Sequence record: AP019559
Reading direction: 5' to 3' (one strand)
DNA length: 64,000 bases
DNA from: Escherichia phage SP15
Within the stretch, counting starts at the first letter, position 1. Every line of letters starts with the position of its first letter. Below are positions 1 through 38,436 of this stretch, in pieces. The notes below the pieces were generated by a model, which saw nothing but the letters and a program-made list of their open reading frames with translations, ran no database searches and was not told the origin of the DNA. The position numbers and the translations under genes are program-made.

Positions 1-123
1 GGTGCAGTGGGTCGGGCGAAAATACTTAGTCTGCTAACCGCCACCCCCGTTACAATTACCATGCTAATTGTTTCACCCTGCAACCATTTTAATTGCAGGG
101 TGAAACAATTTCAACTTTAATTA

Positions 124-8799: not shown

Positions 8800-8994
8800 A
8801 TGAGCAATAAAATTATTGTGACCAAAACTACCACAACGGTTGACGTTTTTTATGTGCCTGATACGCCGGAAAACCGGCAAGCGGTCGAGCGGGGCGAATA
8901 TGATAGCGTTATTTATGATCACGATGGTTACTACCAACATTTGGTGGATTCCTACGGGGAGGAGGAAAAAATCACGCATCAATTACCGGACTGA
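8800..8994 (+). CDS. hypothetical acidic protein
   Basis: 64-aa ORF, last gene of the plus-strand cassette. Confidence 0.5.
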   Translation: MSNKIIVTKTTTTVDVFYVPDTPENRQAVERGEYDSVIYDHDGYYQHLVDSYGEEEKITHQLPD

Positions 8995-9001
8995 CAACAA
9001 G

Positions 9002-9023
9002 CGGGGATCTGCTCCCCGTTTTT
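9002..9023 (+). terminator. Rho-independent terminator
   Basis: CGGGGA-tctgc-TCCCCG stem-loop followed by TTTTT directly after the stop at 8994. Confidence 0.7.
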
Positions 9024-9137
9024 CACGCCTCCAGTTAAATACCTCTTTGTTTTAGTATCCCCACCAAAATTAAACGCGTCAGAATGCGATCTAGGACGTT
9101 TTAGCGGTATATTAGAATTATTCACTACATAGGAATA

Positions 9138-9245
9138 CTGTATATTTATACAGTAGGATAAGCTGTGGATAAGTCTGTTAATAACGCTTCAAAATGGCTA
9201 GGATTCTGTCAAGTCAAATCGTGCTGTTAATAAGTCTGTGGATAA
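9138..9245. promoter_or_regulatory. DnaA-box cluster B (three boxes, opposite orientation to cluster A) including the right arm of the 40-bp inverted repeat (9138-9177)
   Basis: Reverse-complement TTATCCACA boxes at 9164-9172 and 9237-9245, variant at 9153-9161. Confidence 0.7.
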
Positions 9246-9255
9246 CTTAAATAAC

Positions 9256-9440
9256 AGTGTTTCTCACTTCCATTCTTAAATGAGAATCATTATCATTCGC
9301 ATTCCACTGTCTAACCGATAATCATTTCACTTTTTGAATAGTTCTCATTTCACTTCTTAAATGAGAATCATTATCATTCGCATTCCACTTCTTAAATGAT
9401 AATGATTCTCATTCAAAGTCGCAGGGCAATTGCCCTGCGC
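9256..9440. repeat. nested direct and inverted repeats ending in the perfect 18-bp palindrome GCAGGGCAATTGCCCTGC (9421-9438)
   Basis: 34-bp unit CTTAAATGAGAATCATTATCATTCGCATTCCACT at 9275-9308 and 9356-9389; inverted copy AATGATAATGATTCTCATT at 9395-9413. Confidence 0.75.
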
Positions 9441-9444
9441 TTTT

Positions 9445-10045
9445 GTGCAAATCCGACATTTGCCCCCATGGATTACGCGTGGGCATGTATGTGCAAATCC
9501 GACAATTTTTGGTAGTGTGCAAATCCGACCCGAAAAATTTTTATAGTGTGCAAATCCGACAATGAATTTTCCCAAAAACTCCAGCAATCACGAACTGCGT
9601 TCGAATCCTGTGGAATTAGCTAGAATATGTGCAAATCCGACATGTGTTGAGGTGTGCGAATCCGACAAGATTTTTATGACTTCGATGAGAAGGTGTGTGA
9701 TTGTATAGGTTTGAGGAAAAGATGAGAGAGCGAGAGAAATTTTGGGGCTAGAAGGATGTGGGCGCAGGATTGGTGCGGAGCACCTGATTTGCAGGTATTT
9801 TGGGGGAGAGTTGAGATAATTTGGGAAGATTTGAGATAGGTGCAGAAAAAGTAAAATTTTATTAGCTAAATGGGGCAAAATAGCTTGACAAGTGAAAATT
9901 CTTGTGGCTCTAAAAACTCAGGCAATCACGGGCCTTCGGCCCGAAATAATGCTGCTATTTTCAGGAGAGTAAGAGTTCCTAAAAACTTAGGCGTTTGTGC
10001 AAATCCGACCATAAATTTCTAGAAACACAATGTGCAAATCCGACA
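9445..10045. repeat. array of eight GTGCAAATCCGAC(A/C) 14-mers, irregularly spaced
   Basis: Copies at 9445, 9491, 9527, 9548, 9629, 9654 (one mismatch), 10007, 10032; a ninth copy inside a CDS at 11823. Confidence 0.8.
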
Positions 10046-10201
10046 GTAAAATCCAGAAATGTGTTTTCAAAAAATGTCTCCTAGAAATAACCGCCCTCCC
10101 TATAACCGCCCTATATTAACCGCCTATTGCTAGAGTTTCTAGGAACAATGAAAACCGCCTGAGTTGACTAGAGTTTTCCTAGAAACTTAGGAGTCTAGAA
10201 G
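10017..10201. repeat. TCTAGAAA-type palindromic motifs and four AACCGCC(C)T direct repeats
   Basis: TTTCTAGAAAC at 10017, CCTAGAAAT at 10081, AGTTTCTAGG at 10133, TTCCTAGAAAC at 10185; AACCGCC at about 10089, 10104, 10119, 10152. Confidence 0.6.
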
Positions 10202-10510
10202 AAAGTGTTGTGCCATCCTAGTAGATGAGCGGCAACAGGTGTATCATCTTGAACACAGATATTGCCTTTAAAAATATTTAAATAATATAAAGAAAAAGAG
10301 ACCCCCAATTTCATGAGAATCTCTCCTGGGGGCGCGTGATTAATTACGTGAGTACTCATGCCGTCATACCGCTGTTGCTAGGCCGCAAGCTATACGAGAC
10401 ATTCGTGTAATAATCATCGCCCCTAGAGTTAATCAACTAGAGTAGTTGTTAATCTATGAGATTATTATAACATGTTTGGGTATGAGAATGCAAGAACTTT
10501 TTGTTAACTT

Positions 10511-11224
10511 TTATTCCTCCTTCTTGGATTTGAGTTTGATGCCTAAGGATGCGAAGTAGATATAAGTTGCTAAATAGGAAGCAGTGGATCCTGTATCATC
10601 GTAATCCATAGTTCCACGAGCTGCTCTAGTATATTCAGGAGCATAGTTTAATATCGTGTAACTTGGCATTCCTAGCGACTTACATAGTTCTTTAAATGTA
10701 TCTTCGTATTTATGGCACATGAAATGCACAGCATTTTCTAATGGCGTTAACTCTAGATCTTTATGGAGAGCTACAGTCAAACTCGCTAGCATTGTGCCAA
10801 TCCCACGATAAACTTCATCTTTAACTAGAGTTGGTTTCTCTTTTTCTAGTGGAGGAAGGTGGGCATATTTCCCATGTTTGAAAGGGATAAGATCTTCGCT
10901 AGCTAATGCTTCTTTAAATGATGCTTCCTTAAATCTTGGGAGATCTTCATCGATTAGGATATGAATAGCATTAGAGGAGAAACCTTTTGCTTCAGGATCT
11001 AAAGCTTTCAACGCTTTATTCACTTCTACATATGAGCCTGACCAAACTACTTGTTTTGCATCTCGATCATACTTGATCTTACCTTTATCCCACCTAGCAG
11101 GATAATGATCTCCTAAAAACATTACTGCATATTTTTCTTCCTCAGTTAGCTGGGAAAGACTCTTTTGTGTAGCACCACGCGCTAACTGAATGAGACGTTT
11201 TAATTTTTCAGCTTCTTTAATCAT
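10511..11224 (-). CDS. hypothetical protein, possible GNAT-type acetyltransferase
   Basis: 237-aa ORF; 'VYRGIGTML' resembles a GNAT acetyl-CoA binding motif; weak. Confidence 0.45.
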   Translation of the reverse strand: MIKEAEKLKRLIQLARGATQKSLSQLTEEEKYAVMFLGDHYPARWDKGKIKYDRDAKQVVWSGSYVEVNKALKALDPEAKGFSSNAIHILIDEDLPRFKEASFKEALASEDLIPFKHGKYAHLPPLEKEKPTLVKDEVYRGIGTMLASLTVALHKDLELTPLENAVHFMCHKYEDTFKELCKSLGMPSYTILNYAPEYTRAARGTMDYDDTGSTASYLATYIYFASLGIKLKSKKEE

Positions 11225-11568
11225 ATATCAGACGCTTGCTCCCCTGTTTCTTTCTTTTCTGTCTTAGGTTTTCTTGCAACTTCTCCAAAGGTTCCTTTGG
11301 TTCTTTCTTTAGCTGGAAGATCTACTTTATACCATAGGATTCCTAATTGTTGCGCTAAATGGGCTATATTCTTTGGTGTTATACTTGGAACATCTTCCCT
11401 ATCAGAAACTTTAGAAATTATATCAAGTAACTCTCCTATTTTTGGCTTACTAGTAGTTATTAGAATATATTCTAATGTTTCTATTTCTACATTTTCATCT
11501 TTATAGTAAAGACTAAGAGTAATTAAATCGTCACCAGCAGAAGTTATTTTTGTTTTACCAAATATCAT
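11221..11568 (-). CDS. hypothetical protein
   Basis: 115-aa ORF, 4-nt overlap with the downstream gene. Confidence 0.5.
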   Translation of the reverse strand: MIFGKTKITSAGDDLITLSLYYKDENVEIETLEYILITTSKPKIGELLDIISKVSDREDVPSITPKNIAHLAQQLGILWYKVDLPAKERTKGTFGEVARKPKTEKKETGEQASDI

Positions 11569-12173
11569 TAACTACCTCTCTTATCTTCATTAAGAGCAGC
11601 TCCCAACGCTTCAAGGATAGTATCATTTATACTCCCAGGCCTAAGATTATTAAAGTGAGTAACATAGATGGGACTTCTAAAACCCTCAGCATCCGCAGGT
11701 GCTACGCTTCGCATATCAGATTCAAAAGCTTCTTGAGTATGTTGCAACTGTACAGAAGGGCCGTAATCTTCACCAACTCGATATGAGGAATTATTTTCTA
11801 TAACGCCACCACATGGAACATTGTGCAAATCCGACGTTATTTTAGGATTAAATGCGATACCACTTTTGGTCCAGGAACCTCCAACAGTCACAGGAGTACT
11901 AGGGCGGTTCACCTCAGTCTTTACGAGTTTATAACCAGCATCTATTAATGCGTTAATAAGGTTATCAGCTGGAATCCGAGCCTTGCCAAAGATCTTACGA
12001 GCTTCTTTTAATTTATGCTCAAGATCTTTACAGGCTTTAATATCAGTGTGCGCAAAGGTTAATTTCATAGATTTGAACTGTACAGTGGCAGTTAAGTCTT
12101 TAAAATCATAATCCCATGTATTTAATTCATGGTCTGGTACTACTTGAACAGGTTGTTGTGCATATAAAGTCAT
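11568..12173 (-). CDS. hypothetical protein
   Basis: 201-aa ORF; contains one copy of the 14-mer repeat at 11823-11836. Confidence 0.55.
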   Translation of the reverse strand: MTLYAQQPVQVVPDHELNTWDYDFKDLTATVQFKSMKLTFAHTDIKACKDLEHKLKEARKIFGKARIPADNLINALIDAGYKLVKTEVNRPSTPVTVGGSWTKSGIAFNPKITSDLHNVPCGGVIENNSSYRVGEDYGPSVQLQHTQEAFESDMRSVAPADAEGFRSPIYVTHFNNLRPGSINDTILEALGAALNEDKRGS

Positions 12174-22143: not shown

Positions 22144-22896
22144 TTATCCAACTAGTGGTTCTAGCTCTAAGTCACAGAAGTTATAAACTTCTAGTTTAAG
22201 GTTATTGATACCATCGAATTTATTAACTAATTCGTGAGTAATATATTTTGCAGGAATACCACTTTCAGATGGATGATCTGATTTAATAGTGAACTTCTGC
22301 TCAGCGGGTACTACATTTACTATCAAAGAATCCATATCTAAATGGTTTGTTTCTCTGAGTAACTCTCCTTCATTGGGGAATCTAACATCTGTTATTACGG
22401 CGACATCTGGGTCGTCTTTAGCGATGGATTGCTCCAGAATTATGAGCCAAATGCGTTCATGTACCAGCTGCCTTCCTAGCTCTGTTCCTACGAGCTGTAA
22501 CATTTTTCTCGGAGAAATAAATAAACTATAAAGTCCGTCTTCTTTATTCTCTGAGATAAGTTGTTGAGGATTAAGATATTTTTCCTCAAAAATCGGCCAA
22601 ACGTACGAGAAGTCTTCAAACTTATTGATACCGTATTTAAACCATACGTCTCTAGCTCGCTCCAATTGAGATTGTGTGACCGTAAACCATTGGTCAATCT
22701 CTTTCCCCCTGCGCTCTCCTAGAAACTCTGGAGTTACACCGAGGATTACGGATGCAAGTTCATAAACGGGCTTAGCAAAACTATAACGACGGGGTAAACA
22801 CGTTGGATACGTGTCATTACACCAATCGATAATTAATTTTGCAACGGTATCTTTTCCCGAACCAGCTTCACCATGTAAACCGACTAATACTGACAT
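22144..22896 (-). CDS. dnk: deoxynucleoside monophosphate kinase
   Basis: P-loop 'GEAGSGKDT' near the N-terminus; 250 aa. Confidence 0.7.
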   Translation of the reverse strand: MSVLVGLHGEAGSGKDTVAKLIIDWCNDTYPTCLPRRYSFAKPVYELASVILGVTPEFLGERRGKEIDQWFTVTQSQLERARDVWFKYGINKFEDFSYVWPIFEEKYLNPQQLISENKEDGLYSLFISPRKMLQLVGTELGRQLVHERIWLIILEQSIAKDDPDVAVITDVRFPNEGELLRETNHLDMDSLIVNVVPAEQKFTIKSDHPSESGIPAKYITHELVNKFDGINNLKLEVYNFCDLELEPLVG

Positions 22897-38394: not shown

Positions 38395-38436
38395 GATAAA
38401 AGAAAAGCCCTGCGCTCTCCAGGGAACGCAGGGCTT
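38395..38436 (-). terminator. Rho-independent terminator for the SPFH gene
   Basis: 10-bp stem AAGCCCTGCG/CGCAGGGCTT; on the minus strand followed by TTTTCTTTT. Confidence 0.65.

What the first reader, a model, noticed from the sequence alone, without database searches (positions are those of the whole stretch)
9690..9850. Purine-rich tract with TTTGRGG / TTGAGAT direct repeats
A strongly strand-biased purine stretch carries six to seven short direct repeats at roughly 10-20-bp spacing with no credible ORF on the purine-rich strand; the opposing track ORF (9588..9878) is low-complexity. This is an iteron-like arrangement.
Basis: seen in the sequence. Interest (0 to 1): 0.4.

Follow-up and report, generated by a model that had tools for sequence, protein, structure and literature searches.

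The report
T5-type terminal-repeat end spacer DNA
The purine-rich stretch is a non-coding piece of the already described, still unexplained repeat region at the right end of the long terminal repeat of T5-like phages, and it looks like helically phased spacer DNA next to the genome-end cut site rather than a set of replication iterons.

Summary
The window is the left 64 kb of a T5-like phage. Positions 9690-9850 lie in the 1.4-kb non-coding gap known in T5 as Repeat Region 3, or the injection-stop-signal region.

**Composition:** the bias is real. The tract has the highest GC skew (+0.72) and the lowest C content (6%) of any 161-nt stretch in the window.

**Repeats:** the "six to seven repeats" are mostly a product of that composition. 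Only a tandem 19-20-nt pair (9800-9838, T5's annotated direct repeat A copies 2 and 3) is a solid repeat. The iteron-like elements are eight copies of GTGCAAATCCGAC that flank the tract.

**Opposing ORF:** it is frameshifted or stopped in all nine aligned relatives.

**Position:** the tract ends 60 bp inside the exact terminal-repeat boundary (9910|9911).

**Conservation:**
- The length of the region is fixed to within 1 nt in ten phages, although a core of it is only 55% identical between clades.
- It has the strongest 10-bp A/T periodicity in the window.
- A C-depleted tract occupies the same place in four other lineages, out to a Vibrio phage.

**Best reading (inferred):** it is an architectural, probably bent, arm of the protein-DNA complex that makes the right genome end. 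A role in injection stop or restart is the main rival. The locus is already known; its function is untested.

The parts
9162..9246 (+). Context: two pairs of DnaA-box-like sites (TGTGGATAA / TGTTAATAA), equivalent to T5 IRD'-spacer-IRC'
   Evidence: family D8. T5 annotation. Description in Davison 2020.
9261..9407 (+). Context: two 66-nt direct repeats (T5 DRE1/DRE2) with internal inverted repeats
   Evidence: D3 (86% identical) and I1/I2..
9414..9445 (+). Context: GC hairpin carrying CCCTGCGC, the homologue of T5 'major nick 1, 7.9%'. It is also terminator-like on the + strand.
   Evidence: T5 nick feature 9661-9668 = CCCTGCGC; terminator-like 9420-9439. CCCTGCGCT also at 22707 and 38408. and 87/88: the PhageTerm 'ends' of Sugarland and Seafire fall on this motif.
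9445..9666 (+). Six copies of the 13-mer GTGCAAATCCGAC (T5 direct repeat D copies 1-6). This is the iteron-like array to the left of the tract.
   Evidence: 11 matches vs 0.92 expected.; 84% identity between clades.
9667..9715 (+). Nearly invariant left block of the tract (AAGATTTTT.TGACTTCGAT...GGTGTGTGATTGT..GGTTTG)
   Evidence: 40 of 49 columns invariant, 0.91 identity between clades. Alignment.
9716..9800 (+). Variable core of the tract. It is sequence-divergent between clades, but its length stays at 84-86 nt. It contains a decayed copy of the 13-mer (about 9721-9734; intact GTGCGAATCCGAC in Epseptimavirus-type relatives), an inverted weak copy of the nick motif (9762-9768), and a small conserved hairpin GGTGC-gga-GCACC (9772-9784).
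   Evidence: 0.55 identity between clades, lengths 84-86.
9800..9838 (+). Tandem 19-20-nt pair TTGGGGGAGAGTTGAGATA / TTTGGGAAGATTTGAGATA (T5 direct repeat A copies 2 and 3). Together with 9786-9799 it forms five consecutive units of about 10 nt, each starting with a T-run.
   Evidence: D5.. TTTTGGGG and the second TTGAGAT are invariant in ten phages. A TTGAGAT pair is also present in Slocum.
9761..9900 (.). Segment with the strongest 10-bp periodicity of A/T-A/T steps in the whole window
   Evidence: rank 1 of 6386 140-nt segments. The top spectral peak lies at 9.75-10.25 bp in the window, T5, sal2, Sugarland, Slocum and KKP_3711.
9845..9962 (+). Near-invariant block holding TTGACA (9885-9890), the terminal-repeat right boundary (9910|9911, GTGGCTC|TAAAAACTC) and a GC hairpin (9929-9943)
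   Evidence: 96 of 118 columns invariant. T5, BF23 and Sw2 ends fall in the same column. Sepoy, same site. Slocum, within 2 nt; this is the only part still alignable with Sugarlandvirus, and the record end of vB_EcoS_I14 corresponds to window 9911.
9997..10044 (+). Two further copies of GTGCAAATCCGAC, outside the terminal repeat (T5 direct repeat D copies 7-8)
10089..10159 (+). Context: four copies of AACCGCC(CT), conserved in all lineages examined except Vibrio phage phi 3, where I did not see it

Best explanation
Identity (well supported): 9690-9850 is the C-depleted, G-run and T/A-run spacer inside the conserved non-coding region at the right end of the long direct terminal repeat of a T5-like phage. 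In T5 this region is called Repeat Region 3, or the iss region. The tract is DNA-level, not coding, and shows no sign of being transcribed. It lies between two arrays of the 13-bp repeat GTGCAAATCCGAC and ends 60 bp inside the exact repeat boundary.

Mechanism (inferred): the tract is an architectural element. Its T/A-runs and G-runs alternate every 10 bp or so, which should make it intrinsically curved or bendable in one direction. Its length is held constant, which would set the distance and rotational phase between proteins on the 13-mer array and the near-invariant TTGACA...GTGGCTC|TAAAAAC block. I think this nucleoprotein complex is most likely the one the terminase uses to recognise and cut the right genome end in concatemers, like lambda cosB or SPP1 pac. 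T5 injects its left end first. By the usual last-in, first-out rule, the right end is then packaged first, so the tract would lie on the packaged side of the initiating cut.

Shown: position, composition, phasing, length constraint, conservation and the non-coding state.
Inferred: bending, the proteins that bind, and the link to packaging.

The confidence of 0.4 applies to the packaging-complex mechanism. The identity part alone I would put at about 0.9.
For: - The window starts at T5 position 1. It carries the T5 gene order and 23 tRNA genes. The region is 92-96% identical to T5 and BF23.
- T5's own annotation places direct repeat D copies 1-6, direct repeat A copies 2-3, the left-repeat end, then direct repeat D copies 7-9 in the same order.
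- Repeat ends determined independently for T5, BF23, Sw2 and Sepoy fall at one point, window 9910|9911. Slocum's falls within 2 nt of the equivalent site.
- The best-conserved block surrounds that cut: 0.92 identity between clades. The core of the tract is only 0.55 identical, yet stays 84-86 nt long. No indel longer than 1 nt occurs between 9445 and 10045 in ten phages.
- The segment starting at 9761 has the strongest 10-bp A/T periodicity of 6386 segments. Lineages that cannot be aligned with it show the same period.
- A C-depleted tract (GC skew +0.37 to +0.92) sits at the same place in Sugarland, Slocum, KKP_3711 and Vibrio phage phi 3, whose A1 protein is only 34% identical.
- The flanking gene is only 33-47% identical at protein level in phages whose tract and cut site are 78-79% identical at DNA level.
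- Terminator-like hairpins bracket the region, and it contains no promoter-like site.
- There is no Rfam hit, and folding is not clearly better than shuffles.
Against: - No experiment links any part of this region to packaging. The papers I could read treat it as the injection stop region and say its roles are untested.
- Bending is inferred from periodicity only.
- The sequence at the left repeat boundary shows no obvious similarity to the right one, so a single shared recognition element is not evident.
- Conservation on both sides of the boundary fits a function in the intact left repeat (injection) as well as one in concatemers.
- Packaging direction is deduced from the order of injection, not measured.
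- Three database records place the repeat end elsewhere: about 9702 in saus47N and cott162, and 9882 in K38.
Confidence: 0.4

Rival explanations
1. The tract is part of the injection stop / restart machinery. In the left repeat it lies just past the point reached by first-step transfer. It could be where DNA is held, or where the A1/A2 proteins act to release or cleave the DNA, as in Davison's proposed A1/A2 site to the right of the stop signal.
For: - The tract lies in the annotated iss interval: AY543070 feature 9140-10149, and AY692264 'injection stop signal' lies under the match.
- Davison's model needs a conserved site between the DnaA boxes and the repeat end.
- Conservation spans the repeat/unique junction, which is contiguous only in the left copy and in concatemers.
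- The architecture is shared by all A1/A2-bearing relatives examined.
Against: - The candidates favoured in the literature are the DnaA-box inverted repeats and the 66-bp repeats further left. The estimated shear point (T5 9618) is about 280-450 bp to the left of the tract's T5 homologue.
- No experiment exists.
- This reading does not explain why the tightest conservation sits exactly at the repeat boundary.
Confidence: 0.25
2. One reading: an iteron-like array of short direct repeats that binds an initiator-type protein, so that the tract is part of a replication origin.
For: - Short T-run/G-run motifs recur.
- DnaA boxes and a true direct-repeat array lie within 500 bp, which Davison calls reminiscent of oriC.
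Against: - The repeats in the tract are 7-mers and are not above chance for the local composition.
- They are not replicated as a motif in other genera.
- No initiator gene is evident next to the tract.
- T5 origins are reported near the genome centre, and replication genes are not expressed during first-step transfer.
Confidence: 0.05
3. The G-rich strand forms G-quadruplexes, or acts as a telomere-like end element. It runs 5' to 3' towards the right physical end in the right repeat copy and carries TTTTGGGG units.
For: - TTTTGGGG is invariant in ten phages.
- Canonical quadruplex motifs occur in Sugarland and JIPh_Kp127, and the G4Hunter score is high in phi 3.
- The strand polarity is the same in all lineages.
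Against: - There is no canonical motif in the window, T5, the Epseptimavirus type, Slocum or KKP_3711, and G4Hunter scores there are only 1.2-1.44.
- The G-run array differs by a deletion of about 48 nt between two members of the Sugarlandvirus genus.
- The tract is internal, 60 bp or more from the end, and double-stranded.
Confidence: 0.05
4. The tract is upstream curved DNA (UP-element-like) for a promoter that uses the perfectly conserved TTGACA at 9885-9890 and drives a short rightward transcript.
For: - TTGACA is conserved in the window, T5, Sugarland, Slocum and KKP_3711 (KKP_3711), with phased A/T tracts upstream.
Against: - No acceptable -10 hexamer lies at 16-19 nt in any lineage, and the sequence there is not conserved between genera.
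- A rightward transcript would run antisense into the early genes.
- There is no Rfam match.
Confidence: 0.05
5. The tract is a spacer without a function of its own. Its skew would be a by-product of decayed 13-mer copies and mutational bias, and only its flanks are selected.
For: - The core 9716-9800 is only 55% identical between clades and holds a decayed 13-mer.
- The G-run array is shorter in JIPh_Kp127 than in Sugarland.
Against: - Length is fixed to within 1 nt in ten phages.
- C-depletion and 10-bp phasing recur in lineages that cannot be aligned with each other.
- The left block and the TTTTGGGG and TTGAGAT positions are invariant.
Confidence: 0.12
6. The opposing ORF 9588-9878 (-) encodes a small protein.
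For: - It is open for 96 codons in the window.
- Some database records call CDSs over the homologous stretch.
Against: - It is frameshifted or stopped in all nine relatives.
- The database CDS calls disagree in strand and frame, and T5 and BF23 annotate none.
- It has no family match.
- The absence of stops is expected when the other strand lacks C.
Confidence: 0.01

Closest known systems
Phage T5 'Repeat Region 3' / injection-stop-signal region (GenBank AY587007 features; Davison 2020 bioRxiv 10.1101/866236)
   Same: Orthologous. It has the same position between pre-early and early genes and the same order of elements: DnaA boxes, 66-bp repeats, nick hairpin, direct repeat D x6, direct repeat A copies 2-3, repeat end, then more direct repeat D copies. 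Nucleotide identity is 94%.
   Different: Only point differences (for example TTTTGGGG here, TTTGGGAGG in T5) and one 1-nt indel. In the sources I could read, the tract is not discussed as a unit. Only direct repeat A copies 2 and 3 are annotated, and 'purine' does not occur in Davison 2020.
Terminase recognition regions next to the cut site: lambda cosB, SPP1 pacL/pacR (from general knowledge, not tested here)
   Same: Short repeated sites plus bent DNA lie within about 50-250 bp of the genome-end cut, on the packaged side. Spacing and phase matter more than the sequence between the sites.
   Different: No sequence relation. T5-type phages make 10-kb direct terminal repeats, not cohesive ends or headful cuts. 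The binding proteins here are unknown.
T7 concatemer junction: short-repeat arrays flanking the 160-bp terminal repeat, pacB, and a hairpin intermediate (recalled from Dunn & Studier 1983 and Chung & Hinkle 1990; not checked here)
   Same: Arrays of short direct repeats lie on both sides of a terminal-repeat boundary in a phage that injects its left end first. A hairpin lies just outside the repeat: here 9929-9943, with different GC hairpins at the same place in other genera.
   Different: Unrelated sequences, a repeat 60 times longer, and different enzymes.
Iterons of plasmid and phage replication origins
   Same: Direct repeats in one orientation lie near DnaA boxes.
   Different: That description fits the flanking 13-mers, not the tract. 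There is no adjacent initiator gene, and T5 origins map elsewhere.
Ciliate telomeric T4G4 repeats (analogy only)
   Same: TTTTGGGG units lie on the strand whose 3' end points to the nearby physical end in the right repeat copy.
   Different: They are not tandem, not terminal and double-stranded, and there are only 2-3 units.

Membership tests
T5 Repeat Region 3 / iss region | Lies in the non-coding gap between the rightward pre-early genes and the leftward early genes, at the right end of the left terminal repeat | tested here: met
   ORF map. BF23 and T5 annotation. Window position 1 equals T5 position 1.
T5 Repeat Region 3 / iss region | Paired DnaA boxes, two 66-bp repeats, and 8-9 copies of direct repeat D | tested here: met
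   (D8, D3, D1); 8 copies between 9445 and 10044.
T5 Repeat Region 3 / iss region | Direct repeat A copies 2 and 3 between direct repeat D copy 6 and the repeat end; sequence homology to T5 | tested here: met
   D5 (9800-9838).. 94% identity.
T5 Repeat Region 3 / iss region | Halts DNA transfer after about 8% of the genome | not testable with these tools
   Functional property. The papers read say it is untested even for T5.
Replication-origin iterons | Three or more near-identical direct repeats of about 17-22 bp in a regular array | tested here: not met
   Within 9690-9850 there are only 7-mers and one 19-nt pair. The excess of repeated k-mers is not significant.
Replication-origin iterons | Adjacent gene for the cognate initiator; the site coincides with a mapped origin | tested here: not met
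   The neighbours are small hypothetical genes. T5 origins are reported near the genome centre (from the literature). I did not search every neighbouring protein for Rep-like domains.
Terminase recognition site (cosB / pac type) | Lies directly beside the genome-end cleavage site | tested here: met
   The tract ends 60 bp from 9910|9911, the end mapped in T5, BF23, Sw2 and Sepoy, and within 2 nt of the equivalent site in Slocum.
Terminase recognition site (cosB / pac type) | Bent DNA or phased sites with constrained spacing | tested here: inconclusive
   10-bp A/T periodicity ranks first in the window. Length is fixed to within 1 nt. Bending itself was not measured or modelled.
Terminase recognition site (cosB / pac type) | Bound by the small terminase subunit and required for packaging | not testable with these tools
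   Needs binding and packaging assays.
G-quadruplex-forming sequence | Four runs of 3 or more G separated by loops of 1-7 nt | tested here: not met
   No canonical motif on either strand of the window. G4Hunter maximum in the tract is 1.32.
Protein-coding gene (opposing ORF) | Reading frame kept open in relatives | tested here: not met
   Frameshifts or stops in all nine relatives. No Pfam or PHROG hit.
Structured non-coding RNA | Match to a known family, or folding clearly better than shuffles, plus a promoter | tested here: not met
   No Rfam match in the tract. Folding z-scores are -1.4 (DNA) and -1.9 (RNA). No promoter-like site.

The most novel reading that the evidence does not exclude
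The strand-specific T-run/G-run tract, conserved in composition, phase and position from Vibrio to E. coli T5-like phages, could itself be the physical brake or latch of two-step DNA delivery, or an end-protection element. One version: when transfer pauses, the DNA still held in the roughly 200-250-nm tail and portal would be the stretch a few hundred bp to the right of the shear point, which is about where the tract and the 13-mer arrays lie. A bent, G-rich segment there could be what a virion or envelope component grips until A1/A2 act. This rests on rough lengths and is inference only.
Probability: 0.1. Interest if true: 0.7.

Novelty: already known. Interest (0 to 1): 0.3.

Why it matters
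How T5 stops DNA transfer after 8% of its genome, and how T5-type phages cut and duplicate their 10-kb terminal repeats, are old open questions. The region that must hold both signals has been described but never dissected. This analysis does not discover a new element. It does sharpen the map in four ways:

- It fixes the repeat boundary to one nucleotide position shared across genera.
- It separates sequence-constrained blocks from a block constrained only in length and phase.
- It shows that C-depletion and 10-bp phasing are the conserved properties of the tract.
- It shows that some PhageTerm 'ends' in database records are really the conserved nick site.

These points give concrete, cheap mutational tests, such as 5-bp versus 10-bp insertions, phase-preserving scrambles, and changing one repeat copy at a time.

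Tried and rejected
- **Coding on the opposite strand:** rejected.
- **Known RNA family or stable structure:** nothing found.
- **Sigma-70 promoter in or next to the tract:** none found by the scan. The conserved TTGACA has no conserved -10 partner.
- **Nick site inside the tract:** the T5 major-nick motif is CCCTGCGC(T) on the + strand at 9433, 22707 and 38408. The tract holds only a weaker, inverted copy (TCCTGCGCC, 9762-9768) that is absent from Epseptimavirus-type relatives. It is probably not a major nick.
- **Chi site in the tract:** none within one mismatch.
- **G-quadruplex:** no canonical motif in the window.
not replicated, except the TTGAGAT pair in Slocum.
- **Similarity between the left and right repeat boundaries:** none seen by eye.
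- **Literature on T5 terminase sites and on transcription of this region:** nothing usable found. Davison 2015 is not held.
- **Curvature modelling with wedge parameters:** not run, because I could only recall the parameters from memory.

Full report
**What the window is.** The 64-kb window is the left part of a T5-like phage genome (family Demerecviridae).
- Position 1 aligns with position 1 of T5 (98% identity over 240 nt).
- dmp/A1/A2-type ORFs occupy the first 4 kb.
- 23 tRNA genes lie at 28.5-39.5 kb on the minus strand.
- The region 9000-10500 finds 454 phage records. The best are Salmonella phage VSe12 (94%) and BF23 (92%).
- Rightward genes end at 8994 and leftward genes start at 11224->10511, which leaves a gap of about 1.5 kb (8995-10510) with no credible gene.

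**What the finding sits in.** This gap is the homologue of the T5 region annotated as 'injection stop signal (iss)' in AY543070. In AY587007 it is dissected into palindromes and repeats. Davison calls it Repeat Region 3 and compares it in 25 phages. Its anatomy in the window, left to right, is:
- two pairs of DnaA-box-like sites (9162-9246);
- two 66-nt repeats (9261-9407);
- a GC hairpin with CCCTGCGC (9414-9445), the homologue of T5 'major nick 1, 7.9%';
- six copies of GTGCAAATCCGAC (9445-9666);
- the tract in question;
- a near-invariant block with TTGACA (9885-9890);
- two more copies of the 13-mer (9997-10044);
- four AACCGCC(CT) repeats (10089-10159).

The tandem pair at 9800-9838 is T5's 'direct repeat A' copies 2 and 3.

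**Checking the observation.**

*Composition.* The bias is real and extreme. The tract has 6% C, 38.5% G, purine 0.68 and GC skew +0.72. These are the extreme values among all 161-nt stretches of the window.

*Repeats.* This claim is weaker. TTTGRGG occurs three times and TTGAGAT twice. Once local dinucleotide composition is kept, the general excess of repeated 6- to 10-mers is not significant (P 0.13-0.34 for 6- to 9-mers; no 10-mer repeats). I re-tested the same motifs in four lineages whose tracts cannot be aligned with this one. That test confirmed only a TTGAGAT pair in Serratia phage Slocum and an excess of TTGGGG/TTTGGG in Vibrio phage phi 3 and KKP_3711.

*Where the iteron-like repeats are.* The array that looks like iterons is the 13-mer on both flanks. 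It gives 11 matches in the window at up to 2 mismatches, against 0.9 expected.

**Coding and RNA.**
- The opposing ORF 9588-9878 is frameshifted in T5, BF23 and K38. It has 2-3 in-frame stops in N3, cott162, Sw2, Sds2 and sal2.
- It and the two small + strand ORFs have no Pfam or PHROG match.
- CDSs called over this stretch in other records disagree in strand and frame. The T5 and BF23 records call none.
- No Rfam family matches the tract.
- Folding is not clearly better than shuffles (z -1.4 as DNA, -1.9 as RNA).
- No promoter-like site lies in the tract. Terminator-like hairpins at 9420-9439 (+) and 10327-10294 (-) bracket it.

The element is therefore best read as DNA-level.

**Relation to the genome end.**
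- The repeat ends given for T5 (10139), BF23 (PhageTerm, 9743) and Sw2 (PhageTerm, 9816) fall in the same alignment column. That column is window 9910|9911, GTGGCTC|TAAAAACTC.
- Sepoy (PhageTerm) has the identical junction.
- In Slocum, a different genus, the PhageTerm end is GTGTGGC|TCAAAC, within 2 nt of the equivalent site and 18 nt after TTGACA.
- The record of vB_EcoS_I14 ends at the position corresponding to window 9911.

So the tract lies 60-220 bp inside the right boundary of the terminal repeat. In the right-hand copy, that is 60-220 bp from the physical right end of the virion DNA.

Three records disagree: saus47N and cott162 place the end at about 9702, and K38 at 9882. The passage I read from the source paper for the first two gives no method.

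**Conservation pattern.** Ten Markadamsvirinae were aligned.

| Segment | Identity between the two clades | Note |
|---|---|---|
| Left block 9667-9715 | 0.91 | nearly invariant |
| Core 9716-9800 | 0.55 | length 84-86 nt in every phage |
| Direct repeat A pair 9801-9844 | 0.68 | TTTTGGGG and the second TTGAGAT invariant |
| Block around the cut 9845-9962 | 0.92 | |

- No indel longer than 1 nt occurs between 9445 and 10045.
- Where the window reads ATGAGAGAGCGAG, Epseptimavirus-type phages have an intact extra 13-mer GTGCGAATCCGAC. Part of the tract is therefore a decayed copy of that repeat.
- The neighbouring gene 10511-11224 is only 33-47% identical at protein level in phages whose tract and cut site are 78-79% identical at DNA level. 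This agrees with Davison's remark that the non-coding repeats are better conserved than the genes.

T/A-runs and G-runs alternate with a period of about 10 bp:

GATTTGCAGGT / ATTTTGGGGGAGA / GTTGAGATA / ATTTGGGAAG / ATTTGAGATAGG

The 140-nt segment starting at 9761 has the highest spectral power at 9.5-11 bp for A/T-A/T steps among 6386 segments of the window. The top spectral peak lies at 9.75-10.25 bp in the window, T5, sal2, Sugarland, Slocum and KKP_3711.

**Other lineages share the architecture.** Sugarland (Klebsiella), Slocum (Serratia), KKP_3711 (Enterobacter) and Vibrio phage phi 3 (A1 protein 34% identical) have:
- DnaA boxes;
- tandem repeats;
- a GCGC hairpin;
- an array of GTGCAAA(T/A)CCGA;
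- a C-depleted tract with GC skew +0.37 to +0.92;
- T/CTGACA.

All four also have more copies of their own short repeats beyond that point. Sugarland, Slocum and KKP_3711 additionally carry the AACCGCCCT repeats and a GC hairpin, of a different sequence in each, just after the TTGACA block.

What is conserved in the tract is composition, strand, phase and place, not sequence.

**Mechanism.** These features are fixed length, 10-bp phasing, weak sequence constraint in the middle, and strong constraint at both edges and at the cut. Together they are what one expects of an architectural segment that bends, or lets itself be bent, and so sets distance and rotational phase between proteins bound on either side.

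Its nearest neighbour is the exact repeat boundary. T5 injects its left end first, so by the usual last-in, first-out rule the right end should be packaged first. I therefore think the most likely complex is the one that recognises and cuts the right end in concatemers, comparable to lambda cosB or SPP1 pac. That comparison comes from general knowledge and is an analogy only. I put this at about 0.4.

The main rival, at about 0.25, is a role in arrest or restart of DNA transfer. That is the role the literature assigns to the whole region without experimental test. Lower-ranked rivals are:
- a functionless spacer (0.12);
- a quadruplex or telomere-like element (0.05), since no canonical motif exists in the window;
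- curved DNA upstream of a TTGACA promoter (0.05), since there is no -10 element;
- origin iterons (0.05);
- a gene (0.01).

**Novelty.** The locus is already known and annotated in T5. I did not find the tract's composition, phasing and length constraint, or its precise relation to a boundary shared across genera, in the sources I could read. The word 'purine' is absent from Davison 2020. These points are refinements and not a new kind of element.

**Limits.**
- There is no experimental evidence for any function.
- Bending was not modelled.
- Davison 2015, Wang 2005 and Heusterspreute 1987 could not be read.
- The statements about T7, lambda and SPP1 come from memory.

Noticed in passing
window 9445-10044, and 11823-11835: There are eight copies of GTGCAAATCCGAC, all on the + strand (T5 direct repeat D). 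A ninth exact copy lies alone inside the gene 11568-12173(-). The core GTGCAAA(T/A)CCGA is conserved as far as Vibrio phage phi 3, where it forms 17-nt tandem arrays (L018 2600-2790).
   Followed up: partly
window 9433-9441, 22707-22715, 38408-38416; L011 917-923; L021 1086-1093: CCCTGCGCT occurs on the + strand at 9.4, 22.7 and 38.4 kb. These positions match T5's major nicks at 7.9, 18.5 and 32.6%. The PhageTerm 'terminal repeat ends' in the Sugarland and Seafire records fall exactly on this motif (CCTGCGC| and CCCTGCG|C), not on the conserved boundary. Those two annotations probably report the nick and not the genome end.
   Followed up: partly
window 5487, 8182, 8744: The only three exact Chi octamers (GCTGGTGG) in 64 kb all lie in the terminal repeat and all on the + strand. 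In the right repeat copy that is the orientation that would be active for RecBCD entering from the right end. The count alone is not significant (3 vs 1.0 expected). One-mismatch Chi-like octamers are about twice as frequent as expected (50 vs 23).
   Followed up: partly
window 9574-9602 and 9912-9943: A unit AAAAACTC(C/A)(A/G)GCAATCA followed by a GC hairpin occurs twice, and the second copy starts right after the repeat boundary. The first hairpin (CGAAC-tgc-GTTCG) shows compensatory changes in relatives: CGAGC-gcg-GCTCG in N3 and GATGC-tgc-GCATC in Sw2. The hairpin after the boundary is replaced by different GC hairpins in Sugarland, Slocum and KKP_3711.
   Followed up: partly
window ~9701-9703 (L006 844; L007 842): Two records from one study (saus47N, cott162) put the end of the left terminal repeat at GGTGTGTGAT(TG)|, inside the nearly invariant left block of the tract and 208 bp before the boundary found in T5, BF23, Sw2 and Sepoy. 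The method is not given in the passage I read. This could be an assembly convention or a second discontinuity.
   Followed up: partly
window 1-15: The first 15 bases differ from T5 only by G/C exchanges (GGTGCAGTGGGTCGG vs TGTCCACTGCCTCCG), while the next 225 are almost identical. This may be an end-sequencing artefact in one of the records.
   Followed up: no
window 10511-11224 (-) versus 9000-10500: The genome is mosaic around the non-coding region. The first early gene is 99% identical to VSe12-type Salmonella phages but only 33-60% identical to most relatives, whereas the non-coding region is closest to T5 and BF23.
   Followed up: no
L011 1150-1200 versus L012: Sugarland carries a canonical G-quadruplex motif (GGGG-ttaatt-GGGG-caattc-GGGG-atgat-GGGGG-ca-GGGGG) that JIPh_Kp127, of the same genus, lacks through a deletion of about 48 nt. 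The G-run array can therefore expand or contract in units of about 10 nt.
   Followed up: partly
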